DNA of 64,000 nt from Patescibacteria group bacterium (GTDB taxonomy: Bacteria > Patescibacteriota > JACPGU01): positions 797,254 through 861,253 of the forward strand of contig JAKLDG010000001.1 in assembly GCA_022703645.1 (NCBI GenBank), written 5' to 3'. Within the stretch, counting starts at the first letter, position 1, and every line of letters begins with the position of its first letter. This document shows, piece after piece, positions 35,405-60,169 of the stretch. A model generated the notes under the pieces. That model did no database searches, had not been told where the DNA came from, and saw only the letters and a list, made by a program, of their open reading frames with translations. The translations under genes were made by a program, and so were the position numbers.

Positions 35405-35406
35405 AA

Positions 35407-35757: not shown

Positions 35758-35758
35758 G

Positions 35759-36022: not shown

Positions 36023-36037
36023 TATTAAAAATGAAGC

Positions 36038-36829
36038 ATGTCTTTTTTATGGAATGAGGTTTTAGTAAGACCATTATTAAATCTCCTGCTATTTTTGTAT
36101 GATATTATGCCAGGCCACGACCTCGGTCTGGTTATTATTGTGATTACGGTAATCATTCGCTTGATAGTTTTGCCATTCGGTCTTAAAGCATCGAGGGCGC
36201 AACGCAAGATGAAAACATTAGCCCCGGAGCTAAATAAACTAAAAGAGACCCACAAAACCGATCAGCAAGCTCTAGCAAAAGCTCAGATGGACTTCTATAA
36301 GCAAAATGGCATAAGCCCCTTTTCAAGCTGTCTTCCAGTATTAATTCAACTGCCGATACTTTTTGCGCTCTATCGGGTTTTACGCGAGGGGTTAACAAAA
36401 ATAAACCCAGTCATGGTTTATAGTTTTATCCATCTTCCAGAAAAAATTAGTCCAATGTTTCTTGGATTCCTAGATTTATCACGTCCAGAAAAATATGTAT
36501 TACCGATAATCGCTGGTATAGGGCAATATATACTTGGGGTTATGACAACTCCGTCTAATAATTCAAAAAACGCTGGGCCAGAAGCTGCTATGACAAAACA
36601 AATGTTATATATATTTCCAGTAATGACGATTTTTCTGGCGCTGAGTGTTCCTGCCGGCTTGGTTTTTTATTGGATTGCAACGACGCTTTTTAGTATTTTA
36701 ACTCAAATCTATGTAAATCATGAGAAGAACAAAGAGGTTACAGTACGTATAAAAACAGCTGGTGCCGATCATCATCTGGTTATTCAAGAGGTCAAAGAAG
36801 GAGAAATGGTGGAAGAAGAGAATAAATAG
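36038..36829 (+). CDS. yidC: YidC/Oxa1-family membrane protein insertase (short form)
   Basis: 263 aa, 5 TM helices, ...ISPFSSCLPVLIQLPILFALYRVL. Confidence 0.85.
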   Translation: MSFLWNEVLVRPLLNLLLFLYDIMPGHDLGLVIIVITVIIRLIVLPFGLKASRAQRKMKTLAPELNKLKETHKTDQQALAKAQMDFYKQNGISPFSSCLPVLIQLPILFALYRVLREGLTKINPVMVYSFIHLPEKISPMFLGFLDLSRPEKYVLPIIAGIGQYILGVMTTPSNNSKNAGPEAAMTKQMLYIFPVMTIFLALSVPAGLVFYWIATTLFSILTQIYVNHEKNKEVTVRIKTAGADHHLVIQEVKEGEMVEEENK

Positions 36830-39582: not shown

Positions 39583-40218
39583 TCAAGGGCTTGTTGTGGT
39601 TGAGCCAGGGGTATTTATTTGAAGTTGTTCTACTGCGCTGGGGTTGCTTGCTGGATTGATATTAGCATTATTATAACCGATAAAATTGATAATAAACTGT
39701 GATAAAGCGTAAAACAGTATCAGGACTACCAGCCCAAGCAAGGCATAAGTAATCATGGCGGTGGCTTTTTTAATTTTATCCGGATTGCCTGTGGAAAAAA
39801 GATAATTGATTCCACCCCAAGCGATCAGTAGCGCAACCAGCACAAATCCAAATTCAAGTCCCAGTGATAATATATCTCCCATAGTCTTACCAGCAAAAGT
39901 AAAAATTGCTGCTGAACTGGTTTGCCCCGAGGCTTTTTCTTGAACTCCACTCAGTAGTCCAAAAAAAACTCTTGCTCCTACCACCACTATTAATGAGGTA
40001 ATGCCTGCTTCTACATATTTACGCGCTTTTTTAATTTTATCTGGATTGCCACTGCTGCTAATATACATCAAGGTAGCAACCATAAATGATATAAGACAGG
40101 CAAGCAAAGTCAGCCAATAAGTAACAGAATAAAGCGAGCCAAGAAAATTTGTACTGAAATTAATATCGGTCAGGCTTGTTCCAGAGACGATACTATTAAA
40201 ATCAAGATTAGTAGCCAT
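39583..40218 (-). CDS. Tandemly duplicated T4SS pilin-like protein (two pilin modules in one ORF)
   Basis: Two copies of the module: ...YISSSGNPDKIKKARKYVEAGITSLIVVVGA... and ...LFSTGNPDKIKKATAMITYALLGLVVLILFYAL. Confidence 0.5.
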   Translation of the reverse strand: MATNLDFNSIVSGTSLTDINFSTNFLGSLYSVTYWLTLLACLISFMVATLMYISSSGNPDKIKKARKYVEAGITSLIVVVGARVFFGLLSGVQEKASGQTSSAAIFTFAGKTMGDILSLGLEFGFVLVALLIAWGGINYLFSTGNPDKIKKATAMITYALLGLVVLILFYALSQFIINFIGYNNANINPASNPSAVEQLQINTPGSTTTSP

Positions 40219-40226
40219 TGATTATT

Positions 40227-41591
40227 CTAATAATATTTTTTCAGCATATCATTGCCTCGGCTGACAGCAGTGTCCAGCGCGCTTTGAGAACTTTCCCCAT
40301 ACTTTGTAACAGAGTCAATCATATCAATGATTATTTTATCAAACGCTTCACCATTACCCTTATAAAAAGTCTTAGCATATTCCTTTTGTGTCTCAAAAAC
40401 TTTATCACTTCCACCGCTGATGCTAATAAGTGGGGATGGTTTTTTGGTTGCGGTGAGATACTGCGTTATATTTGCTGGGTCAGAAACAAATTTCATAAAA
40501 GACCAAGCCAATCCTTGATTTTTAGAATTACGAGAAACCGCCCAACCCCAATAATTTGCTAATGTGATATTACTTGGGGCACCCGTTATCTGAGGAAATG
40601 GAGCAACTTTAAGACTAATATCTGGGTTGATCTTTTTTATTTGCGGTATCATATATGAGTATCCTATCATCATCGCTACTTTGCTATTAGCAAAAGCCTC
40701 GATATTTGACGGAAAGTCAGATGACCATTTGTTGTTTTCATTACCATTTGCAAAAGCTGTATAGAAATCTAAGGCACTCGCTCCCGGATGTTTTATTTCT
40801 TCTGTTCCAGATTGTTTCTGGAATTGATTGAAAGTAAAAGTTCTTTTATCTTCTGAATTCATAATTGTTCCAGTCTGTAGCATCAAAGCCAATACTATAT
40901 CCTGAGAACGGGAAATATTACTTGTCAAACCCATTGCTATGCCTGCGTCTGCTTGTTGGGTTACTGTGCTTGTCACGCGGCCTTTTTTGTCATAATTAAC
41001 TATTGGGTGAGTTAGGATTTCAGCGTCTTTTATGACATCATCCCAAGTTGCGGGCGCTTCGACAATAGAGGCCTTATTAAACATTCTTGAATTATAGAAA
41101 AGCGCTAAGCTGTCACTATATAAAGGAAATGCATAAATATTTTTGTCTAAAACAAAGTCTTCATAAGCTGCTGGAAAGAATTTCTTTTGGTAGTCATCAA
41201 CAGAAATAATAGTGTCTTTTGCTGGGACCATCTTTGCTTTATGTTTTCCAATCCAGCTATTACTCACATAGAATATATCGGGTCCATTGTCCGAAGCAAT
41301 GGCATCAATAAGCATTGATTCATAATCCGCGTAATCTTTCATTACGTATGTAATTTTCGTGTCTGTGTAACCTTTTTGTTTATTGAAACTCTTAATTATT
41401 GGCTGCCAGGTATCACTACTATCAAAAACCCCCCAAATAACCAAACTATTTGTAGCGCCAGTATCAGTATTTTCTACTAGAGTCGTTCCGTTGTCTGGTG
41501 TTGTAGTAGTGGTTTTTTTCCCGCAACTCAATCCTGAACCGAATATAACCAAAAGAACACTCAAAAAAACTATGTATTTTGTAGCTTTCAT
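40227..41591 (-). CDS. ABC transporter extracellular solute-binding lipoprotein (family 1, sugar-type)
   Basis: Lipobox GSGLSC, ~450 aa with the SBP_bac_1 layout (...VIWGVFDSSDTWQ...IFYVSNSWIG...). Confidence 0.65.
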   Translation of the reverse strand: MKATKYIVFLSVLLVIFGSGLSCGKKTTTTTPDNGTTLVENTDTGATNSLVIWGVFDSSDTWQPIIKSFNKQKGYTDTKITYVMKDYADYESMLIDAIASDNGPDIFYVSNSWIGKHKAKMVPAKDTIISVDDYQKKFFPAAYEDFVLDKNIYAFPLYSDSLALFYNSRMFNKASIVEAPATWDDVIKDAEILTHPIVNYDKKGRVTSTVTQQADAGIAMGLTSNISRSQDIVLALMLQTGTIMNSEDKRTFTFNQFQKQSGTEEIKHPGASALDFYTAFANGNENNKWSSDFPSNIEAFANSKVAMMIGYSYMIPQIKKINPDISLKVAPFPQITGAPSNITLANYWGWAVSRNSKNQGLAWSFMKFVSDPANITQYLTATKKPSPLISISGGSDKVFETQKEYAKTFYKGNGEAFDKIIIDMIDSVTKYGESSQSALDTAVSRGNDMLKKYY

Positions 41592-42343: not shown

Positions 42344-45300
42344 ATGAAATTGAGAAACAAAATAGCTTATATTTTTATTCTTATCTCTCTCATATTTAGC
42401 GCGAGCTTGGTTAGTGTTCCAGCAAAAGCGCAAAGTGATCCACAGAATATCCCCAACCAGAAAATTGAGTATTCGTTTATAGTAAGTAGTACAGAATATA
42501 TTTCCAAAATATCTAAGAGCGATTTTGCTTTTACTGGGGTTGCAAGTTCTTGGAATAAAGATATATATAACCCACAGATATATTTAAGATCAGGTAAAAC
42601 AGAAAGTTCTTTAAGCGACTGGCAAATTATAACCCCCGAAAGTGATATGGGCCCGGATAATACCCCTAACGCAAATTTTTATTATGGGGATGTGTTCAAT
42701 GCAAACAAAGATAGCTACCTTCAATATAAAGCAGTATTTGATGCGCAAGATATTGGAAAAAATTTCTCTATATCTTTAAGTATCTTTGACGCTTCTGCTG
42801 CGCCACTTATTACTAAAATTTCAGCGGATAGCGCCGGTTTGGGTCCAAAAATAATTTCCAGATCAGCTTGGGGAGCAAATGAAAGCTATATGAATTGGAC
42901 TCCGGAATATAGCGAAGTAAAAGCGTTTATCATTCATCATACGGCTGGGGACGCGGGTTCGGGTATAATTGACCAGGCGAGCTTAATGCGTAATATTTAT
43001 TATGGACACGCGGTAAGTAATGGTTGGGGTGATATCGGTTACAATTATGTCATTGATTTTAATGGGAATATTTATGAGGGTAGAACTGGCGGAGGTTCTG
43101 TAGTGGCTGGTCATACTACCGGTTATAACTATGGTACTATTGGTATATCGGTAATGGGTGATTATACAACACGTGAATTTACGGAACAGCAGACACAAGC
43201 GCTTGCAGATCTAATTGCCTATAAATCTTTTCAAAATGGAATTGATCCTACCGGAATGGTTTATCTGAAAGACAAAACGATTTCTACAGTTGTTGGTCAC
43301 AGAGACCTCAATGCCACTCTTTGCCCGGGAACAAATATTTATACCAAAATTACAGATATAAAAAATCGAGCAAAGACCAAATTAGCTACTTATCCATCAA
43401 AACAAGTAAACGCGCAATTCATTTCCGCTGATGGTGGTACAAAGATCTTTGGCGGTGATACCAGCAAGTTCAATGTCAGTATAAAAAACAATGGAAATGC
43501 ACCGATATTAAGAGGTGGTTCACATCGTATTAATATTGTCAGTAATGGCGGTTCTGTTGTAGCAAATCTTGCGAATTCAGGTAGGAGTATCGAACCCGGA
43601 GAAACGGTAGCTATTAGCGTAGATGTTTCTGCTCCAACAACCACTTCAACGGTAAACCAAGCTTTTAGCGCAACGATTGATGGCGCGCTTATTGCGGGTG
43701 GAAATTTCTCAACGACTTTTAATATTGTGATGCCGCAATACAGGGCAAAGTTTAATGCAAAAAGCGCCGATTTGGTTTTACAGCCAGGTCAGAAAGGAAC
43801 AGTTTGGGTGGAATTCAAAAATGTCGGAAGCGAGAACTGGCAAAGTAATACGGGGTTAAAATTAGTAACCAAGTTTGGCAATAGTAGTTCCTATTATACT
43901 TCTGGGGATTGGGAATCCGGATCAAGTGTTGGAACATTTGACCAGCTTCCAGTAACAGCTGGGAGCATTGGCAGAATCTCTTTTCAAATAACTGCCCCCT
44001 CAACAGCCGGTAATTACAGAGAGAGTTTTAAATTAACAGCCAACCCATTACTTGAAGGTGGTTCTGATCTTGAAGTTTCTTTTGGTCTTGTAAACCAAGC
44101 TCCAAGTGGGCAGCTGATAAGTACTACTGAACAAAAAGTTTATAGCAAAAATATTTCTGATTATAGTTATCAAATTATTACTCAAAGTCCGTATCTTGAT
44201 ATGGTTACCGGAGATAAAAAAGAAGTGTTTATTGAGATAAAAAATACTGGCAAGACCAATTGGTACAAAGACACTCTTCGCCTGGGTACATTGAGAGTTG
44301 CGGATCGAGCAAGTATATTTGCCGATTCTTCTTGGAAATCAGCCAATCGTATTGAAATGCAGCAAACTAAAGTTGCTCCGGGAGAAAATGCGCGATTTCA
44401 GTTTACAGCAACTGCGCCAAACCAGGCCGGAAGTTTCAAAGAATATTTTGGCTTTGTTGCCGATGGAGTTGGTTGGATGAGTGATATCGGGCTTTATTGG
44501 GCGATTAATATTTCTGCTCCAGCGGTTCCAACTTCATCTAGTTCAACATCATCCGATCCCTATGCAATGCAATTAATCGATAAAGGCAACGATATAAGCG
44601 TTGCAAAGGGCATTGGTACAAATGTAAACATAAAGGTGAAAAATAACGGAGCTGCTACTTGGAAAAAAGGCGTAGTCAGACTTGGGACGTTTGAACCAAT
44701 GGATCGGGTGAGTACCTTTGCTGATACTAATTGGTTGAGTACAAACAGAATTGCTTTTGCAGAAACGGAGGTTGCGCCGGGAGGAATAGCAAATTTCAAT
44801 TTCACGATTAATTCAAGTAAAGATGTTGGTAACTATATAGAAAAATTCAAACTCGTTGCTGAAAATATTGCTTGGTTTGGGGTTGTTATACCAATAAATA
44901 TTTCAATCACAAATCCACCAGTTGTCAGTTTGCCTGCTACACCTAAGATAGGAGATGCTTTTGCATATGTTTCACAAAGTCCTCATCTAACTTTAAATAC
45001 CGGCGATACTGTTCAGGTTTGGATAGATCTGAAAAATACCGGAGATACAAATTGGGAAAAAAATTCTTTATCTCCTGTGCGTTTAGCTACAAATAACCCA
45101 CGTGATAGAACCAGCGCGTTTATTTCATCTAATCGCATTTCTTTGAATGATAATATTGTTTACCCTGGTAATACGACTCGCTTTAGTTTTAGTATTACAG
45201 CTCCGGGTACACCGGGTGTCTATAAGGAGTATTTTACTCTCGTGCGAGATGGTGTTTCATGGTTTAATGACATAGGAATTTATTGGCAATTTACAGTAAA

Positions 45301-46264
45301 TAAATCAACTCAACAAGATACTCAAGTTACGACAAATACTCCTACAACCGGAACGCTAACTAGTATTCCCGCAGGTACGCAAACGGTAAGAATTTCAGCC
45401 AGTGGTCCATTTATCGTAGTAAATGGACCCGAAGTAAAATTAGCTGAAGGTGGTGCTGGTGATTATATAGACGCATTTTATAAAGATGGAAAACATTATT
45501 TTAATTATAAAGGTCAAACTATACTTGCGGATGGTTGGGTGAGAGTTGTCCCATGGGCAGCACAAACCATTTTGACTCTTGATAACTATTCTGACAGACC
45601 AGCATGGAATACTTCGATAAATGATAATAAATTCAAGGGGGCTATAGAAGTACGTTATAGCACAAAAAATAGTCGGCTTTGGGTTATTGATGATCTAAAT
45701 ATTGAAGATTACCTCAAAGGTGTTTCTGAACCTCTCGAAAGCGGTCCCTATGAATATATTAAGGCAGCAGTTATTGCGGAGCGCAGCTACATTTATTATC
45801 ACTTGCAAAGGGGTGGCAGATGGCCGGATGATTTTATTACTCTCAAAAACTCGCGCAATGGTAATGGCGATGATCAGATTTATCAGGGTTACAATTTCTC
45901 AGCCCGCGCTGTAAATATTCCAAGAGCAGTATCTGATACAGCTGGGCAAGTAGTGACTTATAATGGTAATCCAGTTTTAACTCCCTACTATACGCAAAGT
46001 GATGGGAGAACCCGCTCGATTTCTGAAGTTTGGGGATCAAAACAGAGTGACTATCCGTGGTTAGTTTCTGTGCCTGATCCATGGTCTGCTGGATACCCAA
46101 TGTTGGGTCATGGCGTTGGTATGTCTGGTCGTGGCGCGAGAGGCTTGGCAGCGGAGGGTAAGAGTTATCAGGATGTACTAAAATATTTCTATACAGGAAC
46201 TGGAATCGGGAATATTAGTACGAACAGAAATATCCGAATTGGGATATATTACATAGAACAATAG
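42344..46264 (+). CDS. Secreted multidomain cell-wall hydrolase: N-acetylmuramoyl-L-alanine amidase (Amidase_2/PGRP) plus 5-6 copies of an unassigned ~85-100-aa repeat plus C-terminal SpoIID/LytB domain
   Basis: Signal peptide. Amidase_2 block SRSAWGANESY...FIIHHTAGD...GWGDIGYNYVIDFNGNIYEGR. Repeats with consensus NxG..W....RLGT..P.DR.S.FAD.SW.S.NRI....V.PG....F.F...AP...G.Y.EYF..VA.GV.WM.DIGLYW. C-terminal SpoIID-like ...YEYIKAAVIAERSYIYYHL...QIYQGY...YYTQSDGRT. Confidence 0.7.
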   Translation: MKLRNKIAYIFILISLIFSASLVSVPAKAQSDPQNIPNQKIEYSFIVSSTEYISKISKSDFAFTGVASSWNKDIYNPQIYLRSGKTESSLSDWQIITPESDMGPDNTPNANFYYGDVFNANKDSYLQYKAVFDAQDIGKNFSISLSIFDASAAPLITKISADSAGLGPKIISRSAWGANESYMNWTPEYSEVKAFIIHHTAGDAGSGIIDQASLMRNIYYGHAVSNGWGDIGYNYVIDFNGNIYEGRTGGGSVVAGHTTGYNYGTIGISVMGDYTTREFTEQQTQALADLIAYKSFQNGIDPTGMVYLKDKTISTVVGHRDLNATLCPGTNIYTKITDIKNRAKTKLATYPSKQVNAQFISADGGTKIFGGDTSKFNVSIKNNGNAPILRGGSHRINIVSNGGSVVANLANSGRSIEPGETVAISVDVSAPTTTSTVNQAFSATIDGALIAGGNFSTTFNIVMPQYRAKFNAKSADLVLQPGQKGTVWVEFKNVGSENWQSNTGLKLVTKFGNSSSYYTSGDWESGSSVGTFDQLPVTAGSIGRISFQITAPSTAGNYRESFKLTANPLLEGGSDLEVSFGLVNQAPSGQLISTTEQKVYSKNISDYSYQIITQSPYLDMVTGDKKEVFIEIKNTGKTNWYKDTLRLGTLRVADRASIFADSSWKSANRIEMQQTKVAPGENARFQFTATAPNQAGSFKEYFGFVADGVGWMSDIGLYWAINISAPAVPTSSSSTSSDPYAMQLIDKGNDISVAKGIGTNVNIKVKNNGAATWKKGVVRLGTFEPMDRVSTFADTNWLSTNRIAFAETEVAPGGIANFNFTINSSKDVGNYIEKFKLVAENIAWFGVVIPINISITNPPVVSLPATPKIGDAFAYVSQSPHLTLNTGDTVQVWIDLKNTGDTNWEKNSLSPVRLATNNPRDRTSAFISSNRISLNDNIVYPGNTTRFSFSITAPGTPGVYKEYFTLVRDGVSWFNDIGIYWQFTVNKSTQQDTQVTTNTPTTGTLTSIPAGTQTVRISASGPFIVVNGPEVKLAEGGAGDYIDAFYKDGKHYFNYKGQTILADGWVRVVPWAAQTILTLDNYSDRPAWNTSINDNKFKGAIEVRYSTKNSRLWVIDDLNIEDYLKGVSEPLESGPYEYIKAAVIAERSYIYYHLQRGGRWPDDFITLKNSRNGNGDDQIYQGYNFSARAVNIPRAVSDTAGQVVTYNGNPVLTPYYTQSDGRTRSISEVWGSKQSDYPWLVSVPDPWSAGYPMLGHGVGMSGRGARGLAAEGKSYQDVLKYFYTGTGIGNISTNRNIRIGIYYIEQ

Positions 46265-46336
46265 AAAACAAAAAAGCAATGAATCAAAAAAGGGCCTTTT
46301 AGAGGTCCCTTTTAAATTTACTAAAAAATGAACAAT

Positions 46337-46657
46337 TTAGGATGCAAATTCGACTTCAACCTCTTTTGTATCTACAGAAAAAGGTACATCTGATTTTGCA
46401 AGCGCTAAGGCGATTTCTCCCAAAATTTCGAACTGGCACTCAATAGCGCTTTCTTTTAAGTATGCGACAAAACGTTTGGCTGGCGCGCAGTCGCATTGAA
46501 TAAAGATAAATCTTTTTTTCTCTCCATCGTATTTAACCGCATACCCGCCGGATCCTATTGGGTTAAATGTGCTGTCAATACTTTCGATAATTTTTTTGTT
46601 GGTTTCATTTTTGGGTTCGTCTGGTCTTTTTAGTGTAATAACTGCAATTTTTGTCAT
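46337..46657 (-). CDS. Hypothetical protein (106 aa)
   Basis: ORF followed by a hairpin terminator at ~46290-46320; no motif. Confidence 0.35.
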   Translation of the reverse strand: MTKIAVITLKRPDEPKNETNKKIIESIDSTFNPIGSGGYAVKYDGEKKRFIFIQCDCAPAKRFVAYLKESAIECQFEILGEIALALAKSDVPFSVDTKEVEVEFAS

Positions 46658-46744
46658 GATGTTTTACTCCTTTTTTAAGGTATTTTTTGCTATATATAAT
46701 TTAGCATAAATAAGCCCTTTTGTAAAATATGTTAGAATAGTTTT

Positions 46745-47491
46745 ATGCTAAAAGATATTTATATTATCTTAAGAAACTTTTTGTTTGATCTCTTATTCCC
46801 CTGTTGTTGTCTTGGTTGCGGTGCAGAGGGGTCTTGGATTTGTCAGCAGTGTCTCAAAACTATTGATATTATAAAACAGCCCTTTTGTTCGGAGTGCAGA
46901 AGATCTACTTCATACGGAGAATTTTGTGACAGGTGCAAAAAAGATTTTGCGCTTGATGGGATTTTTATTTGCGCGAATTTTAACGAAGGAGTCCTCAAAG
47001 AAGCGATTCACCAATATAAATATAGCTTTGTTTTTGATATAGGGGAGATATTAGGGAAAATTATAAATGGAAAATTAAATTATGAATTAGGAATTATGAA
47101 TCATGAATTAAAATTTGACATGGTTGTACCGGTGCCATTGCATAAAAAAAGAAAAGCATGGAGAGGGTTTAATCAATCTGAGGTTTTAGGCAAAGTTATT
47201 GCGAAAAAATCAAATATTAAAATTGAGAAGAAAATCCTAGTACGTAATAAATATACAACTCCGCAAATGGAATTAGATAGAGATAGAAGATTGGAGAATT
47301 TAAAAGATGTATTTGAGATTAATAATGTAGGGATTGATAGCTATCAATCCCTACGGACAATACAGAATAAAAATATTTTATTGGTTGATGATATCACGAC
47401 AACCGGAGCAACGCTGGAAGAATGCGCCAAGGTTTTAAAAATAAATGGAGCAAAAAGTGTTTGGGCAATAGTTTTGGCAAAAGGTAAGTAA
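46745..47491 (+). CDS. comFC: ComF-family protein (ComFC-type phosphoribosyltransferase, competence/DNA uptake)
   Basis: N-terminal Cys-rich zinc-finger (CxxC...CxxC) plus C-terminal PRTase motif ILLVDDITTTGATL. Confidence 0.7.
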   Translation: MLKDIYIILRNFLFDLLFPCCCLGCGAEGSWICQQCLKTIDIIKQPFCSECRRSTSYGEFCDRCKKDFALDGIFICANFNEGVLKEAIHQYKYSFVFDIGEILGKIINGKLNYELGIMNHELKFDMVVPVPLHKKRKAWRGFNQSEVLGKVIAKKSNIKIEKKILVRNKYTTPQMELDRDRRLENLKDVFEINNVGIDSYQSLRTIQNKNILLVDDITTTGATLEECAKVLKINGAKSVWAIVLAKGK

Positions 47492-47523
47492 ACGAAAAAG
47501 CGCCGTAAGGCGCTTTTTCGTTT
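47490..47523. terminator. Bidirectional terminator (aaacgaaaaagcgcc-gtaa-ggcgctttttcgttt)
   Basis: A perfect palindrome with flanking A/T runs, between convergent comFC and the S8 protease gene. Confidence 0.75.
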
Positions 47524-49783
47524 ACTTAACTATGATATTCCAATAAAGCCCATTATCTTCCATCCAGTTAAATCCATCAGCAACCGGACGGAAATATTCA
47601 TTATAAACCCCGGCTGCGTTTGGAGCCTTTACCGAAAAATTAAACCTCACATTTTGTCCGGGAACAATAGAGTTACTACTCATAATGATTCTATTCGGGG
47701 ATAGCCATCCTGATCCAGAAATGGGGTTGTAGAAACTGCTTGTACGATCTAATGGGTTGGCGGTACCTAATTTAACAACTGATGAATCCCAAGTTATTCC
47801 GCCGGTGTTTTGATATTCAACCCAGAAGACAATTTGATCTCCTCTATTCATTATTATATAAGGGCTTTGACCAATATAAGATGCATGATAAGACTGTTTT
47901 TCAATTGTCACTTTCCAATAAAGACCAATGTCATTCATCCAGCTAATTCCTTCAGCAACAAGATTAAAATATTCATTGTATTGACCGCTAATTCCAGTCG
48001 GGGCGCTAAAAGTAAAATTAAAATGTGCTATTTCTCCATGGGCCACGACATCTTCCTGCATCGCAATGCGGTTGCTTGAAAGCCAAGAAGTGTCAGTAAA
48101 AATACTATTTCTGTCCATTGGATGAGTTGAGGCAAGGTGTACGCTCTGCTTGGTCCAAGTAGCACTACCCGTGTTTAAATAGGCAATACTCATAGTAGTT
48201 TTTTGTCCCGCAGAAATATTTGGGTATGGGCTTTGGCTTATTAGCTGATATTCATAATCACTTGGGTTTTGTGATATCAAAGTACTTGGAAGAGCAGAAG
48301 CATCACGAGTGTTTAATGTCTTTACCGTTCTGTTTCCTGAAGTGTCATAAACCTCGAAGGTTATTGTATGATCGCCAGCTTCCAAGTTATCAGTTTTTAT
48401 GCCAACATTAAATGATTGTTTTGGGTCGCTATTTAAAACATACCATTTGCTGCCGCCATCAATTTGATATCGAACGGTAGAGATATTACTACTGGTGACG
48501 TTTGGCAAAATATCGTTTCCATCTGTGTCATCGATAGCCGCACCATTTATGCTGTAACTGCCATTTCCTGCTTTATAAAAAGAAGAAATATTGAGAGACG
48601 GAGCGATAGTATCATAGTTTAGAGCGCTATAAGCGTCGAGTTTTCCATATCCAAGAGTCATAGTATAAAAGGCACCAGACATAGATGGAATTTTCTTGGC
48701 ACTTGATAAAATTCTTTTTTTAACTTGTTCTGTCGTTAAAGATGGATCTTTGGATAATAGAAGTGCCGCAGTAGCTGTTACCTGTGGGGTTGCAAAAGAA
48801 GTTCCAGTTAGATATTGATAGTGGTTAATTTGGTTTGAAACAATCCAGCTGGTTGTATAAATATTGTCTCCTAAAGCAACAAGTCCAATACCATCACCAT
48901 AGTTTGCGTAGGATGCTTTATAACCATTCGCATCAAGCGCACCGACGCCAATAGCATCAGGATTACGAGCCGGATTATCTACCAAGACTCTGTGGCTATT
49001 TCCTGTAGCAGCCACCACTAAGCAACCTTTGTTTTTTGCATAGGCTACGGCATTATCCAGAGTTGTACTTTCTTCCATTAAGCCCAAACTAACATTGGCA
49101 ACCCTGGCGCCATTATCGGCTGCATAAGTAAGCCCGCGAGCAAGATCTACCACATCACCTTCACCAGAGGCGGGAACGGCTTTTACTGCCATAATTTTTA
49201 CATTGGCAATTCCAGCAATACCCAATCCATTATTTTTTTGCGCTGCGACCACTCCTGCAACAGCAGTTCCATGCAGATTATCATCCATCGGATCATTGTC
49301 GTTATTTACAAAATCATACCCATGAAAACCTTGCGAATTGGCCCACATCATATTTCGCAGGTCTTCATGGTTGTAGTTCACACCAGTGTCTACAACGGCA
49401 ACAATGATTGATTGTGAACCAGTCGAAGTGTTCCATGCGTTTATTATATTTGAACTTTGCAGATATGTTTGCAGTGAATATCCAGGATCATTAGGGGCTT
49501 CTGAAATCTTCACTTTCTGGTTTTTTTCGATATAAACCGTCGCGATATTTTTTGATAGGATGTTTACTTGGTCGGCCGTCGCATTAATTTCATAAATACC
49601 AAGTTCATTAATTTTTTCAAAACTAGCCACACCAGTTTCGTTAAAAACATCTTCGGTCAAAGCAAAATCACGACTTTTTAATAAGTAGGATTGTTTTTCT
49701 TGCGCAGCAAAGACCTTATTCGTTGGTATAAATAAAAGAGAAAATAGTGTCAGAAACACTAATGCTAAACTGATTTTTTTCAT
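47522..49783 (-). CDS. Secreted subtilisin-like serine protease (S8) with a C-terminal array of the same repeat domain found in the 42344..46264 amidase
   Basis: Signal peptide. Catalytic triad contexts VVDTGV (Asp), HGTAVAG (His), GTSFATP (Ser). The C-terminal ~230 aa are two to three repeats, ...LGTANPLDRTSSF...NRI...VPGQNVRFNFSVKAPNAAGVYNEYFRPVADGFNWMEDNGLYW. Confidence 0.8.
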   Translation of the reverse strand: MKKISLALVFLTLFSLLFIPTNKVFAAQEKQSYLLKSRDFALTEDVFNETGVASFEKINELGIYEINATADQVNILSKNIATVYIEKNQKVKISEAPNDPGYSLQTYLQSSNIINAWNTSTGSQSIIVAVVDTGVNYNHEDLRNMMWANSQGFHGYDFVNNDNDPMDDNLHGTAVAGVVAAQKNNGLGIAGIANVKIMAVKAVPASGEGDVVDLARGLTYAADNGARVANVSLGLMEESTTLDNAVAYAKNKGCLVVAATGNSHRVLVDNPARNPDAIGVGALDANGYKASYANYGDGIGLVALGDNIYTTSWIVSNQINHYQYLTGTSFATPQVTATAALLLSKDPSLTTEQVKKRILSSAKKIPSMSGAFYTMTLGYGKLDAYSALNYDTIAPSLNISSFYKAGNGSYSINGAAIDDTDGNDILPNVTSSNISTVRYQIDGGSKWYVLNSDPKQSFNVGIKTDNLEAGDHTITFEVYDTSGNRTVKTLNTRDASALPSTLISQNPSDYEYQLISQSPYPNISAGQKTTMSIAYLNTGSATWTKQSVHLASTHPMDRNSIFTDTSWLSSNRIAMQEDVVAHGEIAHFNFTFSAPTGISGQYNEYFNLVAEGISWMNDIGLYWKVTIEKQSYHASYIGQSPYIIMNRGDQIVFWVEYQNTGGITWDSSVVKLGTANPLDRTSSFYNPISGSGWLSPNRIIMSSNSIVPGQNVRFNFSVKAPNAAGVYNEYFRPVADGFNWMEDNGLYWNIIVK

Positions 49784-49832: not shown

Positions 49833-51188
49833 TTAAAGTGTTATTTCCTCATTTTCCTTTGGGATATATGCATTAACACCCAGCTCTTCTTTTAGCTTTT
49901 TCGCAAATTCACTACTTGCTTCCGGCTCACCATGGGTTACAAAAACAGTTTTTGGCATATTCTTTTTTTCCAGAATATTTTTTATCCAATTTATTAACTT
50001 TGGCTGGTCAGCATGAGATGAGTAAGCGGATATCTCGCGGATTTGAGCCCTCACTTCTACCTCCTTACCCATAATACGCACAACTGGCTCTCCGTCTTTT
50101 ATTCTTCGCCCCAAAGTACCTTTTACCTGATAACCGATAAAAAGAATGATATTATTCGGATCTGGCAGGTATAACTGTTCATGACCAAGAATTCTTCCTC
50201 CCGTACTCATTCCGGATCCGGCGATAATTACTTTTGGTTTTCTTTCTCTCTCAATAGTCTTTGATTGCTGTGCGGTTCTTGTGACTATCAGCCCCGGAAA
50301 ATTGAATATATCATGATCAGTTTTGATGGTTTCTCTTGCGGCATTGTCAAAATACCTTGGGTACTTGGCATATATTTCAGTAGCTTTGGTTGCTAATGGA
50401 CTGTCAATAAAAAAATTTATCTTGCCGATTCTCCCTTGGTTTGCAAGTTCGTTCAGTTCATAAAGTAATTCCTGGGTTTTTTCCAGCGCGAAAGCGGGAA
50501 TGAGCAGTACTCCTTTTTTCTCTTCCACTTCATCAAGAACCTTTTCAAGTTCCCCCATCCTTTTTTCTGATTTTTCATGTACTCTATTGCCATAAGTTGA
50601 CTCAATGATGATATAGTCTGCTTGATCAATTTTTTCCGGGTCTTCAACTATTGGGGCAGGAGGGTTACCAAGGTCACCAGAAAAAATAACGGTTTTTCCT
50701 TCAGCGAAAACTTTTAACATTGAAGATCCGAGGATATGCCCCGCATCCAGAAATTCCAAAAGCATATTACCAACTTTGAACGGTTTGTGATAATCAGTTC
50801 CTTGCCATAAATAAAGCGCTTTGTTCAGGTCATCTTCATCCCAAATCATCCTCTCGGGATCGCGTCTGGACTCATCGCGCATTAGTTTGAAAGTGTCATT
50901 CAAAAATATCATTCCGAGATCTTTTACTGGATCAGTCGAATAAATTGGTCCGTTAAATCCGCTTCTGATTAATTTTGGGATTCTCCCAATGTGGTCAATA
51001 TGCGAGTGTGTAGCGATAACGGCATCAATAGTTTTGGCATCAAAAGCAAAAGGTTCCATGTTTTTTCCTCGGTCAGCCGCGCTACCCTGAAACAAACCGC
51101 AGTCAATAATAATCCTTGTTCCTTCAGATTCGATAAGGTAGCAAGAACCTGTTACTCTGCCGGTAGCTCCCATGAATTTTATTTTCAT
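49833..51188 (-). CDS. MBL-fold beta-CASP ribonuclease (RNase J/CPSF-like)
   Basis: HSHIDHIGRIP metallo-beta-lactamase motif; 451 aa with a beta-CASP-like middle region. Confidence 0.6.
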   Translation of the reverse strand: MKIKFMGATGRVTGSCYLIESEGTRIIIDCGLFQGSAADRGKNMEPFAFDAKTIDAVIATHSHIDHIGRIPKLIRSGFNGPIYSTDPVKDLGMIFLNDTFKLMRDESRRDPERMIWDEDDLNKALYLWQGTDYHKPFKVGNMLLEFLDAGHILGSSMLKVFAEGKTVIFSGDLGNPPAPIVEDPEKIDQADYIIIESTYGNRVHEKSEKRMGELEKVLDEVEEKKGVLLIPAFALEKTQELLYELNELANQGRIGKINFFIDSPLATKATEIYAKYPRYFDNAARETIKTDHDIFNFPGLIVTRTAQQSKTIERERKPKVIIAGSGMSTGGRILGHEQLYLPDPNNIILFIGYQVKGTLGRRIKDGEPVVRIMGKEVEVRAQIREISAYSSHADQPKLINWIKNILEKKNMPKTVFVTHGEPEASSEFAKKLKEELGVNAYIPKENEEITL

Positions 51189-54782: not shown

Positions 54783-56330
54783 ATGACCATGGACAAACAA
54801 AAACAACTACCACCCGATCAATGGTATCTCTACATTAGAAAAAGCACCGATGAAGAAGATCGTCAGGTTCTTTCTCTTGAAGCTCAAATGACCGAATTAA
54901 AAGAATTTGCCCAAAGGGAAAATGTAGAGATAACTGAAACATTTGTAGAAAAAAGAACCGCAAAAATACCCGGTCGCCCTGTTTTCAATGAAATGCTCTC
55001 TAAGCTGGAGAATAGCAATGGAAGAATTGGAATTTTAAGCTGGGCTCCCGACAGATTATCAAGAAATTCTGTCGATGGCGGAAAAATAATCTATCTTTTG
55101 GATATGGGTAGAATTGCCAGCTTAAAATTCCCTACCTTTGCTTTTGAAAATAATCCTTCGGGCAAATTCTTTTTGTCCATTTCTCTGTCTAACGCAAAAT
55201 ACTATGTAGATAATCTCGCGGAAAATGTAAGACGAGGCAATAGAGCAAAACTGCGTCGAGGCGAATGGCCAGGGCAAAAACCTTTTGGCTATATTTATGA
55301 CCACCGACTTAGAAACATTGTTCCCGACAAAAAGAAAGCGGAAAAAATCAAAATTATTTTTGAAGAATTTGCCACAGGCAAATACACTTACGAAACTATC
55401 TCTGATCGCATGATAGAATTTGGGATTAAAAGCAAGAGCGGGAAAAGAAAATCCAATCATGCGACAAACTATCTTTTAACTAATGCTCTCTACTGCGGAA
55501 TAATGAATTGGGATGGCGAGGCATACGAGGGAAAATACCAGCCGCTCATCTCAAAGCAATTGTTTTCAAAGGTTCAGGAAGTTCTACAAAACAAGAGCAG
55601 ACCAAGGCGAGGAGTCAGGGGCAACCACAATTTTCCTTTCTGCGGGCTTTTCAGGTGCTCTTGTGGCTCAATGTATACCGCTCAATGGGCTCGTGGCCAT
55701 GGCGGGCTTTACAGATACTACCGATGCACCAGAAAGCACGGAAAATGCTCCGAGCCGTATATCCAAGAAAAAGATCTGCAAAATAGAATCATAGAAAAGA
55801 TTAAAACAATTGCTTTGCCTGACGATTGGGCCGAGCCGATGTTAAATTACTTAGAACAAGAAAAAAAGAAAGAAGCCCAATCATCAAACGCTTTTGTCCA
55901 AGAGATCAACAAAAAACTTATTTCTACTCAAGATAAAATGGACAAACTTTTAGAACTTTATCTTGATAACATGCTTGACGAGGAAACTTACAAAATAAAA
56001 AAAGAAAGTCTCGTCAATCAAAAAATCGCCCTTAAGGACGAAAAACAAATTCTTGGGCAAAAGCGGATGAGCGGCTGGATCGAACCTACGATAGATTATA
56101 TTAAAACACTTGAGAAAGCCAAAAATATCAGCCCAGCGGTATCTCTCCCCGAGATTTCGCAATTTGTGGAAAAAATTGGAACGAACCGCCTGATTTCAAA
56201 TAAAAACATCATTTGGAATTTCTTGGAACCTTATGATTTTACAGCTTCAATTCTCGCTCGCCCCGCCCGCCTTCGGGGCGAGCGAGGAGTCAAAATTCCC
56301 GCAAATTTTTCGCTCTCTCCAATTCAATAA
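54783..56330 (+). CDS. Large serine recombinase (resolvase/invertase N-terminal catalytic domain, recombinase domain, zinc ribbon, coiled coil)
   Basis: N-terminus YLYIRKSTDEEDRQVLSLEAQ...RLSRNSVDGGKIIYLL (catalytic Ser region), Cys-rich CGLFRCSCG...YRCTRK, then coiled coil. The last 49 codons lie inside inverted repeat B'. Confidence 0.8.
   Translation: MTMDKQKQLPPDQWYLYIRKSTDEEDRQVLSLEAQMTELKEFAQRENVEITETFVEKRTAKIPGRPVFNEMLSKLENSNGRIGILSWAPDRLSRNSVDGGKIIYLLDMGRIASLKFPTFAFENNPSGKFFLSISLSNAKYYVDNLAENVRRGNRAKLRRGEWPGQKPFGYIYDHRLRNIVPDKKKAEKIKIIFEEFATGKYTYETISDRMIEFGIKSKSGKRKSNHATNYLLTNALYCGIMNWDGEAYEGKYQPLISKQLFSKVQEVLQNKSRPRRGVRGNHNFPFCGLFRCSCGSMYTAQWARGHGGLYRYYRCTRKHGKCSEPYIQEKDLQNRIIEKIKTIALPDDWAEPMLNYLEQEKKKEAQSSNAFVQEINKKLISTQDKMDKLLELYLDNMLDEETYKIKKESLVNQKIALKDEKQILGQKRMSGWIEPTIDYIKTLEKAKNISPAVSLPEISQFVEKIGTNRLISNKNIIWNFLEPYDFTASILARPARLRGERGVKIPANFSLSPIQ
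56182..56328 (-). repeat. Inverted repeat B' (right copy), reverse complement of 54567..54714; overlaps the 3' end of the large serine recombinase ORF
   Basis: A 147-bp apparently perfect match to rc(B); it encodes the recombinase C-terminal NRLISNKNIIWNFLEPYDFTASILARPARLRGERGVKIPANFSLSPIQ. Confidence 0.85.
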
Positions 56331-57984: not shown

Positions 57985-58120
57985 TTTTTCAAAAACAACG
58001 CAACATGTGTTTTCGGAGGAATCCTTCAATTGGATTCCTTTTTTATTTCAAAAAATTTTAATTTTACGATAGCCTGCATCTAATAAAATAAAAAAACGGC
58101 TTAAATAACACAAAGTATTG

Positions 58121-60165: not shown

Positions 60166-60169
60166 ATCA

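What the first reader, a model, noticed from the sequence alone, without database searches (positions are those of the whole stretch)
42344..49783. Unassigned ~85-100-aa repeat domain shared by a secreted amidase/SpoIID mega-hydrolase and a secreted S8 protease
The 1306-aa protein (Amidase_2 plus 5-6 repeats plus SpoIID/LytB) and the 753-aa subtilisin carry the same repeat: NxG..W....(R)LGT..P.DR.S.F.D.SW.S.NRI....V.PG....F.F...AP...G.Y.EYF..VA.G..WM.D.GLYW. I cannot match it to a familiar cell-wall-binding module (LysM, SH3b, choline-binding, SLH). Two different lytic enzymes sharing one targeting module suggests a dedicated surface or substrate-binding domain. In an epibiotic or predatory lifestyle this could be aimed at a host cell wall; that is an inference.
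Basis: partly seen in the sequence, partly recalled or inferred. Interest (0 to 1): 0.6.

Follow-up and report, generated by a model that had tools for sequence, protein, structure and literature searches.

The report
Bacterial NBR1-type (FW) repeats on wall hydrolases
The repeat shared by a secreted cell-wall hydrolase and a secreted protease in this Patescibacteria genome is real, but it is a divergent bacterial version of the already catalogued FW/NBR1 Ig-like domain (Pfam PF16158); its role outside eukaryotes is still untested.

Summary
A 1306-aa Amidase_2...SpoIID/LytB protein (42344-46264, +) and a 753-aa S8 protease (47522-49783, -) share a ~115-125-aa repeat. There are 7 copies, not ~9: four strong and one degenerate in the hydrolase, two in the protease.

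The repeat is not unassigned. It matches Pfam PF16158 (N_BRCA1_IG, the FW domain of the autophagy receptor NBR1) at 110 bits against a cut-off of 28. Two AlphaFold models, the better at pLDDT 95.9, have human NBR1 (4OLE) as best PDB match and ILRUN (6VHI) as the only other well-superposed one. Of the 106 closest relatives scanned, 103 hit PF16158. The identical proteins are already in NCBI for a Patescibacteria MAG.

The Amidase_2-FWn-SpoIID architecture is widespread: at least 589 stretches in species-representative genomes, mostly CPR. Some genomes split it into Amidase_2-FWn plus FWn-SpoIID. High-GC Chloroflexi MAGs carry S8-FW, FW-SpoIID and Amidase_2-FW as adjacent genes. In some relatives, one of them from Thermoleophilia, nine LGFP repeats fill the same slot.

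Best reading (inferred): FW arrays hold and co-localise wall-remodelling enzymes on the producer's own envelope. Host targeting is unsupported.

This is a new member of a known kind, of modest interest.

The parts
42344..46264 (+). Gene A: secreted 1306-aa bifunctional peptidoglycan hydrolase, ordered as signal peptide, unassigned N-terminal region, Amidase_2, five FW-type Ig repeats, SpoIID/LytB.
   Evidence: ORF. Pfam and NCBIfam hits. It is 100% identical to NCBI 'MAG TPA: N-acetylmuramoyl-L-alanine amidase [Patescibacteria group bacterium]'.
42344..42430 (+). Predicted signal peptide of A (MKLRNK...VPAKA|QSD).
   Evidence: Read directly from the sequence: basic n-region, hydrophobic core and an A-x-A site. 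No predictor was run.
42431..42898 (+). N-terminal region of A (aa 30-185) with no family assignment.
   Evidence: No Pfam or NCBIfam hit. It is found only in a minority of related genes, 10 of the 102 FW-containing ORFs in the loci fetched.
42911..43330 (+). Amidase_2 (N-acetylmuramoyl-L-alanine amidase) domain, aa 190-329.
   Evidence: PF01510 at E 8.8e-19. The expected Zn-ligand motifs are present: IIHHTAG (H198/H199), GHRD (H319) and CPG (C327).
43391..43738 (+). FW-like copy A.1 (aa 350-465). It is degenerate and lacks the DR.S.F / W..NR loop motif.
   Evidence: Family HMM gives 24.6 bits, i-E 2.8e-9. In Pfam it scores better as NPCBM_assoc (25.7 bits) than as PF16158 (16.5 bits). Its closest relatives are the first copies of orthologues, at 36-39% identity.
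43721..44065 (+). FW copy A.2 (aa 460-574). It is divergent and its loop motif is degraded.
   Evidence: PF16158 at 32.4 bits. Family HMM at 70.2 bits.
44147..44518 (+). FW copy A.3 (aa 602-725), with the full motif.
   Evidence: PF16158 at 31.2 bits. Family HMM at 138.7 bits. The AlphaFold model mcfe96393334a has 4OLE and 6VHI as its top PDB hits.
44546..44911 (+). FW copy A.4 (aa 735-856).
   Evidence: PF16158 at 26.2 bits. Family HMM at 103.8 bits.
44945..45304 (+). FW copy A.5 (aa 868-987). It has a short deletion in the beta3-beta4 loop.
   Evidence: PF16158 at 32.9 bits. Family HMM at 137.9 bits.
45341..46261 (+). SpoIID/LytB region (aa ~1000-1306), a lytic transglycosylase-type glycan cleavage domain.
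   Evidence: PF08486 at aa 1109-1206, E 1.1e-9. TIGR02669 at 104.7 bits against a cut-off of 83.3. The motifs EDYLKGVSEP and GHGVGMS are present.
47522..49783 (-). Gene B: secreted 753-aa S8 subtilase with an Ig-like linker and two C-terminal FW repeats.
   Evidence: ORF and Pfam hits. A 753-aa cluster member from the same 867-kb contig is NCBI HRY59979.1, 'S8 family serine peptidase [Patescibacteria group bacterium]'.
49706..49783 (-). Predicted signal peptide of B (MKKISL...NKVFA|AQE).
   Evidence: Read directly from the sequence. No predictor was run.
48692..49414 (-). Peptidase_S8 catalytic domain, aa 124-364.
   Evidence: PF00082 at E 2e-49. The triad motifs are present: VVDTG (D133), HGTAVAG (H172) and GTSFATP (S329).
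48317..48493 (-). Weak bacterial Ig-like domain between the S8 domain and the FW repeats (aa 431-489).
   Evidence: Big_7 at E 0.0047 and Big_13 at E 0.0066, both below the Pfam cut-offs.
47897..48271 (-). FW copy B.1 (aa 505-629).
   Evidence: PF16158 at 24.1 bits. Family HMM at 142.3 bits. AlphaFold model m76db114e29ac has pLDDT 95.9. 4OLE is its best PDB match (TM 0.69-0.73) and 6VHI (TM 0.68/0.74) the only other well-superposed one.
47525..47905 (-). FW copy B.2 (aa 627-753), at the C-terminus of the protease.
   Evidence: PF16158 at 21.2 bits. Family HMM at 134.9 bits. It is 59% identical to the same-position copy of the orthologue in L005.

Best explanation
What it is (shown). The repeat is a divergent bacterial subfamily of the FW / NBR1-like Ig domain (Pfam PF16158), a seven-stranded beta-sandwich. 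Compared with human NBR1 it has a ~10-residue longer beta3-beta4 connection carrying a subfamily-specific conserved motif, LGT..P.DR.S.F....W....R. Of the four canonical tryptophans, the 4OLE alignment shows one is kept and invariant (NTGxxxW), one is replaced by Phe (EYF.LV) and one by V/I. The fourth falls outside that alignment.

Where it sits (shown). Five copies lie between an Amidase_2 domain and a SpoIID/LytB domain in one secreted protein. Two copies end a secreted S8 protease.

How it most likely works (inferred):
- The tandem FW arrays act as envelope-retention and co-localisation modules. They hold the enzymes on the producer's own cell wall, by binding a wall glycan or a wall-associated component through the conserved beta3-beta4 loop face.
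- The amidase first strips stem peptides. The SpoIID domain, tethered about 600 residues further along the same chain, then cleaves the denuded glycan strand.
- The FW-tagged S8 protease is delivered to the same compartment, where it may process or turn over the hydrolase or wall proteins.

My confidence in the domain identity is about 0.95. My confidence in the retention and co-targeting mechanism is about 0.45.
For: Identity:
- PF16158 scores 110 bits on A and 36 bits on B against a cut-off of 28. Single copies score 21-33 bits.
- Of the 106 closest relatives from an exhaustive profile search, 103 hit PF16158 at E <= 1e-5.
- Two independent AlphaFold models have human NBR1 FW (4OLE) as best PDB match. 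Human ILRUN FW (6VHI) is the only other match that superposes well, at TM 0.67-0.74; three GH123-type chains (8K2N) rank alongside by E-value in the second search at TMq ~0.5.
- The best PDB sequence hit of a 36-sequence profile is 4OLE, E 0.0011.

Mechanism:
- Both proteins have N-terminal signal peptides and intact catalytic motifs.
- SpoIID enzymes digest glycan strands denuded by amidases (PMC6635528), so the fusion joins two sequential activities.
- The fusion is the commonest form, 58 of 102 FW ORFs in the loci fetched. Nine loci instead carry split Amidase_2-FWn and FWn-SpoIID genes, mostly a few kb apart, and each half keeps its own FW array.
- S8-FWn lies beside the amidase-FW gene in the window, in L005 and L003, and in a Chloroflexi MAG. 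There S8-FW4, FW4-SpoIID and Amidase_2-FW5 are consecutive genes on one strand.
- In some relatives (one, P0183, from Thermoleophilia) the slot between Amidase_2 and SpoIID holds nine LGFP repeats instead of FW, and never both. LGFP is proposed to be a wall-anchoring repeat (PMC3314691).
- No classical wall-binding Pfam family is matched by two or more of the 106 FW-rich relatives.
- The loop motif is about as conserved across 529 instances as many core positions: D 74%, R 74%, S 77%, F 74%, W 76%, R 92%.
- In the only FW-ligand complex solved, the beta3-beta4 loop forms part of the binding interface (PMC9233695).
Against: - There is no experimental datum on any bacterial FW domain. The papers found mention only that bacterial FW proteins exist and are diverse.
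- The only demonstrated FW ligands are proteins: Ams1, MAP1B and TAX1BP1.
- The same repeat also accompanies non-wall enzymes such as GSDH, glycosyl hydrolases and cupredoxin-like domains, which fits a generic extracytoplasmic Ig module.
- Conserved loop residues could be structural. In CtNbr1 the loop seals one side of the sandwich, and I had no model coordinates with which to test solvent exposure.
- No phage lysin carries the domain: tblastn against 50,697 phage records and a BFVD fold search both found nothing. A general peptidoglycan-binding module is often borrowed by phages.
- Repeat charge gives no hint of binding to a wall polymer; the median pI is 6.6.
- S8-FW adjacency was seen in only two independent lineages.
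Confidence: 0.5

Rival explanations
1. Passive spacer. The FW copies are inert Ig-like beads that only set the distance between the amidase and SpoIID active sites, and extend the protease away from the membrane. They have no ligand of their own.
For: - The domain has a beta-sandwich fold. After the FW domains, the next-best structural matches are the inter-domain Ig linker of Micromonospora sialidase (1WCQ) and accessory domains of glycosidases.
- Pro/Ser/Thr-rich linkers lie between copies.
- The two amidase-proximal copies, A.1 and A.2, have lost the loop motif.
- Copy number varies freely, from 1 to 13 per protein.
- The domain accompanies many unrelated enzymes.
Against: - In the S8 protease the two copies are C-terminal, so there is nothing for them to space.
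- Short proteins and open reading frames that consist of little besides FW domains exist.
- The loop motif is about as conserved as many core positions over 529 instances, and each copy is conserved with its positional orthologue.
- The slot is alternatively filled by LGFP, a putative anchoring repeat, not by arbitrary linkers.
Confidence: 0.25
2. Protein-protein assembly module. As in eukaryotic NBR1, the FW domains bind proteins. Candidates are each other, an S-layer or pilus component, or the partner enzymes. Binding would assemble amidase, SpoIID and protease into one complex, a fused or FW-bridged analogue of the SpoIID-SpoIIM-SpoIIP machine.
For: - All demonstrated FW ligands are proteins (PMC9233695, PMC3357945, PMC9582228).
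- Split Amidase_2-FWn and FWn-SpoIID genes each retain FW arrays.
- Three FW-tagged enzymes are encoded consecutively in a Chloroflexi MAG.
- Marchbank et al. suggested homo- or heterodimerisation for the bacterial XRE-FW proteins.
Against: - The window subfamily differs from eukaryotic FW domains exactly in the loop that forms part of the Ams1 interface, so ligand type cannot be transferred.
- In the fused protein, which is the commonest form, no bridging is needed, yet 3-5 copies are kept.
- No conserved candidate partner gene was seen next to the loci beyond the enzymes themselves.
Confidence: 0.2
3. Host-directed weapon. The FW repeats recognise the cell wall or surface of the bacterial host of this episymbiont and deliver a lytic amidase/transglycosylase and a protease to it.
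For: - The genome is a Patescibacteria (CPR) MAG.
- All cultivated members of that group are episymbionts (abstract of PMC11623550).
- Both proteins are secreted and lytic.
- Type IV secretion-type pilin genes lie 2 kb upstream.
Against: - FW-tagged Amidase_2, SpoIID and S8 genes also occur side by side in GC 0.69-0.73 Chloroflexi MAGs. The Amidase_2...SpoIID scaffold occurs with LGFP or no FW in Actinomycetes and Thermoleophilia MAGs. None of these is a known epibiont.
- The gene lies in conserved synteny beside origin-proximal housekeeping genes in two genomes whose copies are only 48% identical.
- The repeats show vertical, position-by-position conservation, not the rapid turnover expected of host-range determinants.
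- Amidase plus SpoIID is a typical self-wall remodelling pair (PMC6635528).
Confidence: 0.12

Closest known systems
FW (four-tryptophan) / NBR1 domain of eukaryotic NBR1 and ILRUN (Pfam PF16158 N_BRCA1_IG; PDB 4OLE, 6VHI, 7VQO)
   Same: - It is the same Pfam family by HMM.
- It has the same seven-stranded Ig/fn3-like sandwich, with 4OLE and 6VHI as the best-superposing structural matches at TM 0.67-0.74.
- It shares the K-N-T-G-x-x-x-W, V-x-P-G, F-x-F...A-P...G-x-Y and G-x-x-W/F motifs.
   Different: - The window copies are extracellular, tandem (2-5 copies here, up to 13 in relatives) and attached to hydrolases. The eukaryotic domains are single and cytosolic, in an autophagy receptor.
- The beta3-beta4 loop is about 10 residues longer and carries its own conserved motif, P.DR.S.F....W....R.
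- Canonical Trp1 is V/I and Trp3 is Phe.
- Sequence identity to 4OLE and 6VHI is only 13-15%.
- The ligand is unknown.
Bacterial FW proteins noted by Marchbank et al. 2012 (XRE-FW regulators, tandem-FW-only proteins, membrane FW proteins)
   Same: [quoted passage not shown] The FW domain is often C-terminal, as it is in the S8 protease here.
   Different: - Those described are mostly single-copy and cytoplasmic, fused to an XRE helix-turn-helix.
- Fusion to peptidoglycan hydrolases or proteases, and the loop-insertion subfamily, are not mentioned in any paper found.
- The short canonical bacterial type keeps 'NFQWRMVQEGVxWFG', where the window type has 'EYFxLVAEGxxWMxDxGLYW'.
LGFP repeats (PF08310) in Amidase_2-LGFP9-SpoIID proteins (P0176, P0208, P0217)
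   Same: They occupy exactly the same slot between homologous Amidase_2 and SpoIID domains, in proteins of the same length. They are also tandem and extracellular.
   Different: The fold and sequence are unrelated, with a ~53-aa repeat. LGFP is only 'proposed' to anchor proteins to the wall (PMC3314691).
SpoIID-SpoIIP (DMP) engulfment machinery and chlamydial SpoIID + AmiA
   Same: The same two chemistries act in sequence: an amidase removes stem peptides, and SpoIID then cleaves denuded glycan (PMC6635528).
   Different: - Here both activities sit on one polypeptide, or on two FW-tagged polypeptides.
- The amidase is of the Amidase_2 (PGRP/T7-lysozyme) type, not the SpoIIP or Amidase_3 type.
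- There is no SpoIIM-like scaffold.
- The organisms do not sporulate.
E-set Ig-like accessory domains CARDB (PF07705) and NPCBM_assoc/NEW3 (PF10633)
   Same: They give overlapping weak hits on the same stretches. The degenerate first copy of A scores better as NPCBM_assoc. They are also accessory beta-sandwiches of secreted enzymes.
   Different: The six clear copies score PF16158 first, and their best-superposing structural matches are FW domains rather than CARDB, whose structure 2KL6 ranks 50th.

Membership tests
FW / NBR1-like Ig domain (Pfam PF16158, N_BRCA1_IG) | Match to the family HMM above Pfam's gathering score (28 bits). | tested here: met
   Protein A scores 110 bits (E 1.1e-31, 4 stretches) and protein B scores 36 bits (E 1.1e-8). 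Single copies score 32.4, 31.2, 26.2, 32.9, 24.1 and 21.2 bits, so three of six pass alone. Of 106 closest relatives, 103 hit the family at E <= 1e-5, up to 393 bits.
FW / NBR1-like Ig domain (Pfam PF16158, N_BRCA1_IG) | Small seven-stranded Ig/fn3-type beta-sandwich that superposes on the solved FW domains 4OLE and 6VHI. | tested here: met
   The model of copy A.3 (pLDDT 74.5) and the model of copy B.1 (pLDDT 95.9, pTM 0.87) each have 7 strands. The best Foldseek PDB match of both is 4OLE, at E 4e-5 to 1.7e-4 and TM 0.64-0.73. 6VHI follows at TM 0.68-0.74; 8K2N chains rank alongside by E-value in the second search at TMq ~0.5.
FW / NBR1-like Ig domain (Pfam PF16158, N_BRCA1_IG) | Four near-invariant tryptophans, in beta2, the beta2-beta3 linker, beta5 and beta6 (Marchbank 2012). 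| tested here: inconclusive
   - In the alignment to 4OLE, Trp2 (NTGxxxW) is invariant in 529/529 instances.
- Trp1 aligns to V/I.
- Trp3 (HWRL) aligns to Phe (76%) or Trp (10%).
- The position of Trp4 lies beyond the aligned stretch.
- The window copies do carry 3-5 Trp each, but two of them (D.SW in the inserted loop and GxxWM) are at non-canonical positions.
FW / NBR1-like Ig domain (Pfam PF16158, N_BRCA1_IG) | Function as a protein-cargo binding domain (Ams1, MAP1B, TAX1BP1). | not testable with these tools
   Only eukaryotic data exist. The ligand of the bacterial copies is unknown.
Classical cell-wall-binding modules (LysM, SH3b, SLH, CW_binding_1/choline-binding, SPOR, PG_binding_1, LGFP) | Match to any of those Pfam HMMs. 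| tested here: not met
   None is listed for either protein even at E <= 1, nor for the single copies.
Amidase_2 (PGRP/T7-lysozyme-type N-acetylmuramoyl-L-alanine amidase) | HMM match above cut-off, plus the His/His/Cys zinc ligands. | tested here: met
   PF01510 scores 68.6 bits against a cut-off of 26. H198/H199 (IIHHTAG), H319 (GHRD) and C327 (CPG) are present. Calling these residues zinc ligands rests on established knowledge of the family and was not tested here.
SpoIID/LytB lytic transglycosylase domain | Match to TIGR02669 or PF08486 above cut-off, plus the conserved catalytic-region motifs. | tested here: met
   TIGR02669 scores 104.7 bits against 83.3, and PF08486 scores 39.2 against 23. 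The EDYLKGVSEP and GHGVGMS motifs are present. It is not the sporulation equivalog: TIGR02870 scores 83 bits against a cut-off of 235.
Peptidase S8 (subtilase) | HMM match plus the Asp/His/Ser catalytic triad in D-H-S order. | tested here: met
   PF00082 scores 168.9 bits. D133, H172 and S329 sit in their canonical motifs. It is not a mycosin: TIGR03921 scores 193 bits against a cut-off of 279.

The most novel reading that the evidence does not exclude
The loop-insertion FW subfamily is a genuine, previously unrecognised cell-wall (glycan)-binding module. It co-targets a conserved trio of secreted enzymes (Amidase_2, SpoIID, S8 protease) in CPR bacteria and Chloroflexi. On that reading, the cargo-binding FW domain of the eukaryotic autophagy receptor NBR1 would descend from a bacterial envelope-binding domain.
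Probability: 0.3. Interest if true: 0.55.

Novelty: new member of a known kind. Interest (0 to 1): 0.3.

Why it matters
The practical result is a correction. The 'unassigned' repeat belongs to a catalogued family, so the finding should not be carried forward as a new domain.

Some interest remains:
- No function has been shown for any bacterial FW domain, although an exhaustive search found 6,838 cluster representatives carrying this subfamily.
- The Amidase_2-FWn-SpoIID protein may be one of the commonest large secreted proteins of CPR bacteria, which have few other recognisable autolysins.
- If the FW array proves to be a wall-binding or enzyme-assembling module, it would explain how these small monoderm-like cells retain and coordinate wall hydrolases.
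- It would also give the eukaryotic autophagy-receptor domain a concrete prokaryotic antecedent.

Tried and rejected
- A profile of only the six window copies against PDB sequences gave nothing significant; the best hit was a 35-residue stretch of BT_4395 at E 0.07. A 36-sequence profile was needed to reach 4OLE.
- A single repeat through the word-index protein search gave no hits, so close relatives are rare and the family is divergent.
I used the whole protein A instead.
- The exact-product look-up given as a DNA reference failed but worked with the protein id.
- tblastn of the protease's two repeats against 50,697 phage records found no match. The BFVD fold search found nothing at E <= 1e-3. 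There is therefore no evidence that phage lysins use the module.
- A test for concerted evolution between the repeats of A and B was negative. The copies are positional orthologues.
- Charge and pI gave no wall-polymer-binding signature.
- Rfam and tRNA scans of the window were empty.
- Literature searches for N_BRCA1_IG, PF16158, NBR1-like domain, and SpoIID with CPR terms found no paper on extracellular bacterial FW repeats.
- I considered filing the repeat as CARDB or NPCBM_assoc and rejected it. Only the degenerate first copy prefers NPCBM_assoc.
- The commonest partner of the subfamily, an N-terminal ~250-aa domain, has no convincing Pfam or PDB match. The only PDB hit below E = 0.1, the repeat protein BurrH (7e-5), rests on stretches that fail individually.

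Full report
**1. The observation**

The window holds the two ORFs as described: 42344-46264 (+), 1306 aa ('A'), and 47522-49783 (-), 753 aa ('B').
- A carries Amidase_2 (aa 190-329, E 8.8e-19) and SpoIID (aa 1109-1206). The NCBIfam SpoIID_LytB domain model scores 104.7 bits against a cut-off of 83.3.
- B carries Peptidase_S8 (aa 124-364, E 2e-49).
- Both start with a typical signal peptide (VPAKA|QSD and KVFA|AQE).
- Both keep their catalytic motifs. A has H198/H199, H319 and C327, plus EDYLKGVSEP and GHGVGMS. B has D133, H172 and S329 (by inspection).

The shared repeat is real.
- One copy used as a phmmer seed finds the others in both proteins at i-E 1.5e-12 to 1.2e-30.
- An HMM of 523 family instances delimits five copies in A: aa 350-465 (weak, 24.6 bits), 460-574, 602-725, 735-856 and 868-987.
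- The same HMM delimits two copies in B: aa 505-629 and 627-753.
- Nothing else in the six-frame translation of the 64 kb scores below E = 1.

The unit length is ~115-125 aa rather than 85-100, and the copy number is 7 rather than ~9.

**2. What the repeat is**

It is not unassigned.
- Pfam PF16158 (N_BRCA1_IG, 'Ig-like domain from next to BRCA1 gene', the FW or four-tryptophan domain of the autophagy receptor NBR1) scores 110 bits on A and 36 bits on B against a gathering score of 28.
- Single copies score 21-33 bits, so the match is remote but consistent.

Three independent lines confirm the assignment.
- **Relatives.** An exhaustive HMMER search of 1.84 billion cluster representatives with the six-copy profile found 6,838 proteins at E <= 1e-3 and 831 at E <= 1e-30. 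Most are multi-copy. Of the 106 best that were scanned, 103 hit PF16158 at E <= 1e-5, up to 393 bits.
- **Fold.** I built AlphaFold models of copy A.3 (six-sequence alignment, pLDDT 74.5) and of copy B.1 (56-sequence alignment, pLDDT 95.9, pTM 0.87). Both are seven-stranded sandwiches. Both have human NBR1 FW (4OLE, E 4e-5 to 1.7e-4, TM 0.64-0.73) as best PDB match, with human ILRUN FW (6VHI, TM 0.68-0.74) the only other match that superposes well. In the second search three chains of a GH123-type beta-N-acetylgalactosaminidase (8K2N) rank alongside by E-value, but at TMq ~0.5 and rmsd ~14 A. The remaining hits are generic Ig-like domains.
- **PDB sequence.** A 36-sequence profile has 4OLE as its best PDB sequence hit (E 0.0011), with the Chaetomium Nbr1 construct 7VQO third at a non-significant E 0.17.

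That alignment also shows where this subfamily differs.
- The beta3-beta4 connection is about 10 residues longer and carries the motif P.DR.S.F....W....R.
- Canonical Trp3 (HWRL) is Phe (EYF.LV) and Trp1 is V/I. Trp2 (NTGxxxW) is invariant in 529/529 instances.

The public databases already hold this assignment.
- The identical 1306-aa protein is in NCBI as 'MAG TPA: N-acetylmuramoyl-L-alanine amidase [Patescibacteria group bacterium]', with PF16158 precomputed.
- A homologue is named 'NBR1-Ig-like domain-containing protein'.
- A 753-aa member of a matching cluster, from the same 867-kb contig, is HRY59979.1, 'S8 family serine peptidase'.

[quoted passage not shown] It discusses only XRE-FW regulators and a few others, and it reports no bacterial function (PMC3357945, PMC9233695, PMC9582228). 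Searches for N_BRCA1_IG, PF16158, NBR1-like domain, and SpoIID with CPR terms found no paper on extracellular FW repeats.

**3. Context and distribution**

The window comes from a Patescibacteria MAG (GCA_035454225.1; also a JGI contig of 866 kb).
- Gene A lies about 8 kb from dnaA, rpmH, rnpA, yidD and yidC.
- It follows two T4SS-type pilin genes, a solute-binding protein and Hsp20.
- The same order, including a 753-aa S8-FW gene further on, recurs in GCA_028718745.1, where the A orthologue is 48% identical.

A scan of one genome per GTDB species with protein A found at least 589 related stretches.
- The best 80 are mostly Peregrinibacteria/Peribacteria, Gracilibacteria and other Patescibacteria.
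- A few come from Actinomycetes and Chloroflexi MAGs.

In those loci the architectures, by my own HMMs, were as follows.

| Architecture | ORFs |
|---|---|
| Amidase_2-FWn-SpoIID | 58 |
| Amidase_2-FWn | 22 |
| FWn-SpoIID | 11 |
| S8-FWn | 4 |
| FWn only | 7 |

Three further points stand out.
- Nine loci carry a split pair, Amidase_2-FWn and FWn-SpoIID, mostly a few kb apart. Each half keeps its own array.
- Chloroflexi MAGs with GC 0.69-0.73 have FW5-SpoIID next to Amidase_2-FW5 (L059). One has three consecutive same-strand genes: S8-FW4, FW4-SpoIID and Amidase_2-FW5 (L081).
- In relatives P0176, P0208 and P0217 the slot between Amidase_2 and SpoIID is filled by nine LGFP repeats. None of the relatives listed carries both LGFP and FW.

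Each window copy is most similar to the same-position copy in orthologues. Examples are A.5 with L003 copy 4 at 61% and B.2 with L005 B.2 at 59%. A.1 and A.2 also match their counterparts best. The array is therefore old and evolves vertically, without homogenisation between A and B.

**4. How it most likely works**

Shown:
- Both enzymes are secreted and catalytically intact.
- The FW array is the only module they share.
- The association of FW arrays with Amidase_2, SpoIID and S8 recurs across phyla, both fused and split.

From established knowledge: SpoIID enzymes cleave glycan strands that amidases have stripped of peptides (PMC6635528). Protein A therefore joins two sequential steps of peptidoglycan degradation.

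Inferred:
- The FW arrays retain and co-localise these enzymes on the producer's envelope.
- The conserved beta3-beta4 loop face is the likely binding surface. It is the subfamily's most distinctive conserved feature.
- The equivalent loop forms part of the cargo interface in the only FW complex solved (PMC9233695).
- So does the absence of any classical wall-binding module among the families matched by two or more of the 106 FW-rich relatives.
- The two amidase-proximal copies, A.1 and A.2, have lost the motif and may serve only as spacers.

I put this mechanism at about 0.45. The rivals are a pure spacer (0.25), a protein-protein assembly module as in NBR1 (0.2), and host targeting (0.12). 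Host targeting concerns the target, not the binding mode.

Against any wall-binding claim:
- There are no experimental data.
- The only known FW ligands are proteins.
- The repeat also accompanies GSDH-type dehydrogenases and glycosidases.
- No phage lysin carries it.
- It has no charge signature.

**5. Comparison with what is known, and novelty**

Membership in PF16158 is met on HMM score and on fold. The 'four tryptophan' signature is only partly kept, so this is a divergent subfamily. It is not a member of LysM, SH3b, SLH, choline-binding, SPOR, PG_binding or LGFP.

The catalytic parts are ordinary members of Amidase_2, SpoIID/LytB (not the sporulation equivalog) and S8 (not a mycosin). The finding is thus a new member of a known kind. 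The domain is catalogued and the proteins are already deposited and annotated.

Two things are undescribed in the literature I could search:
- the loop-insertion subfamily and its systematic attachment to wall-remodelling enzymes;
- the Rosetta-stone pattern of fused and split genes, and the S8/SpoIID/Amidase_2 gene trio in Chloroflexi.

**6. Verdict**
The shared module is real and non-classical, but it is not unassigned, and host targeting is not supported.
- Interest is 0.3.

The most novel reading still open is that this FW subfamily is a true wall-binding module ancestral in kind to the NBR1 cargo-binding domain. I give that a probability of about 0.3.

Noticed in passing
window 23787-31916 (+) and 14273-17110 (-): Two very large ORFs, 2709 aa and 945 aa, have no Pfam hit at E <= 1e-4. 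They flank a TraG/VirB4-like P-loop ATPase (10378-12441) and lie in the same region as T4SS-type pilin genes. They may belong to the CPR type IV secretion/pilus-like apparatus.
   Followed up: partly
window 32246-36829: The chromosomal origin region lies inside the window: dnaN (32246-33370, -), dnaA (33689-35137, -), then rpmH, rnpA, yidD and yidC (yidC at 36038-36829, +), as annotated on the public contig. The hydrolase gene is only about 8 kb from dnaA.
   Followed up: partly
window 39583-40218 (-) and the neighbouring small ORF upstream: Two T4SS_pilin (PF18895) genes and a solute-binding protein (40227-41591) sit immediately upstream of the hydrolase gene. The order is conserved in a genome whose hydrolase is only 48% identical (L003).
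   Followed up: partly
window 54783-56330 (+) and 58000-64000: A large serine recombinase (Resolvase + Recombinase + Zn_ribbon_recom) is followed by a drop in G+C from ~0.38 to ~0.30. This may be an integrated mobile element or prophage remnant.
   Followed up: no
window 42431-42898 (aa 30-185 of protein A): This ~155-aa region between the signal peptide and Amidase_2 has no family assignment. It is conserved in only a minority of related genes, 10 of 102 FW ORFs in the loci fetched.
   Followed up: partly
window 46337-46657 (-): A 106-aa ORF with no Pfam hit lies between the hydrolase gene and a ComF-like gene (46745-47491, double zinc ribbon + phosphoribosyltransferase). It is called as a gene on both public contigs.
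   Followed up: no
related proteins P0004, P0006, P0010 and others (e.g. P0006 aa 1-259): The commonest partner of this FW subfamily, in 48 of the 150 best representatives, is an N-terminal ~250-aa domain with motifs such as 'IDDSIF...MS...IQNFL' and 'ATLQKEQSL'. It has no Pfam hit at E <= 0.1. Its only PDB hit below E = 0.1, the repeat protein BurrH (7e-5), rests on stretches that fail individually. It may be an uncharacterised wall hydrolase domain.
   Followed up: partly
L081 6205-15499; L059 6100-13084: High-GC Chloroflexi MAGs encode S8-FW4, FW4-SpoIID and Amidase_2-FW5 as consecutive same-strand genes. In L059 the pair is FW5-SpoIID plus Amidase_2-FW5. This is an operon-like version of the pair of genes seen in the window.
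   Followed up: yes
L003 1-1154 and 3776-4165: In the related Patescibacteria genome, a reverse transcriptase (RVT_1) with bAvd/23S_rRNA_IVP-type genes sits beside rpmH and yidC. These look like components of a diversity-generating retroelement. They are absent from the corresponding place in the window.
   Followed up: no
window 49833-51188 (-): A beta-CASP / metallo-beta-lactamase RNase J-like gene lies directly downstream of the protease gene. The precomputed annotation also lists a weak Anti-Pycsar_Apyc1 hit, which is probably only the shared MBL fold.
   Followed up: no
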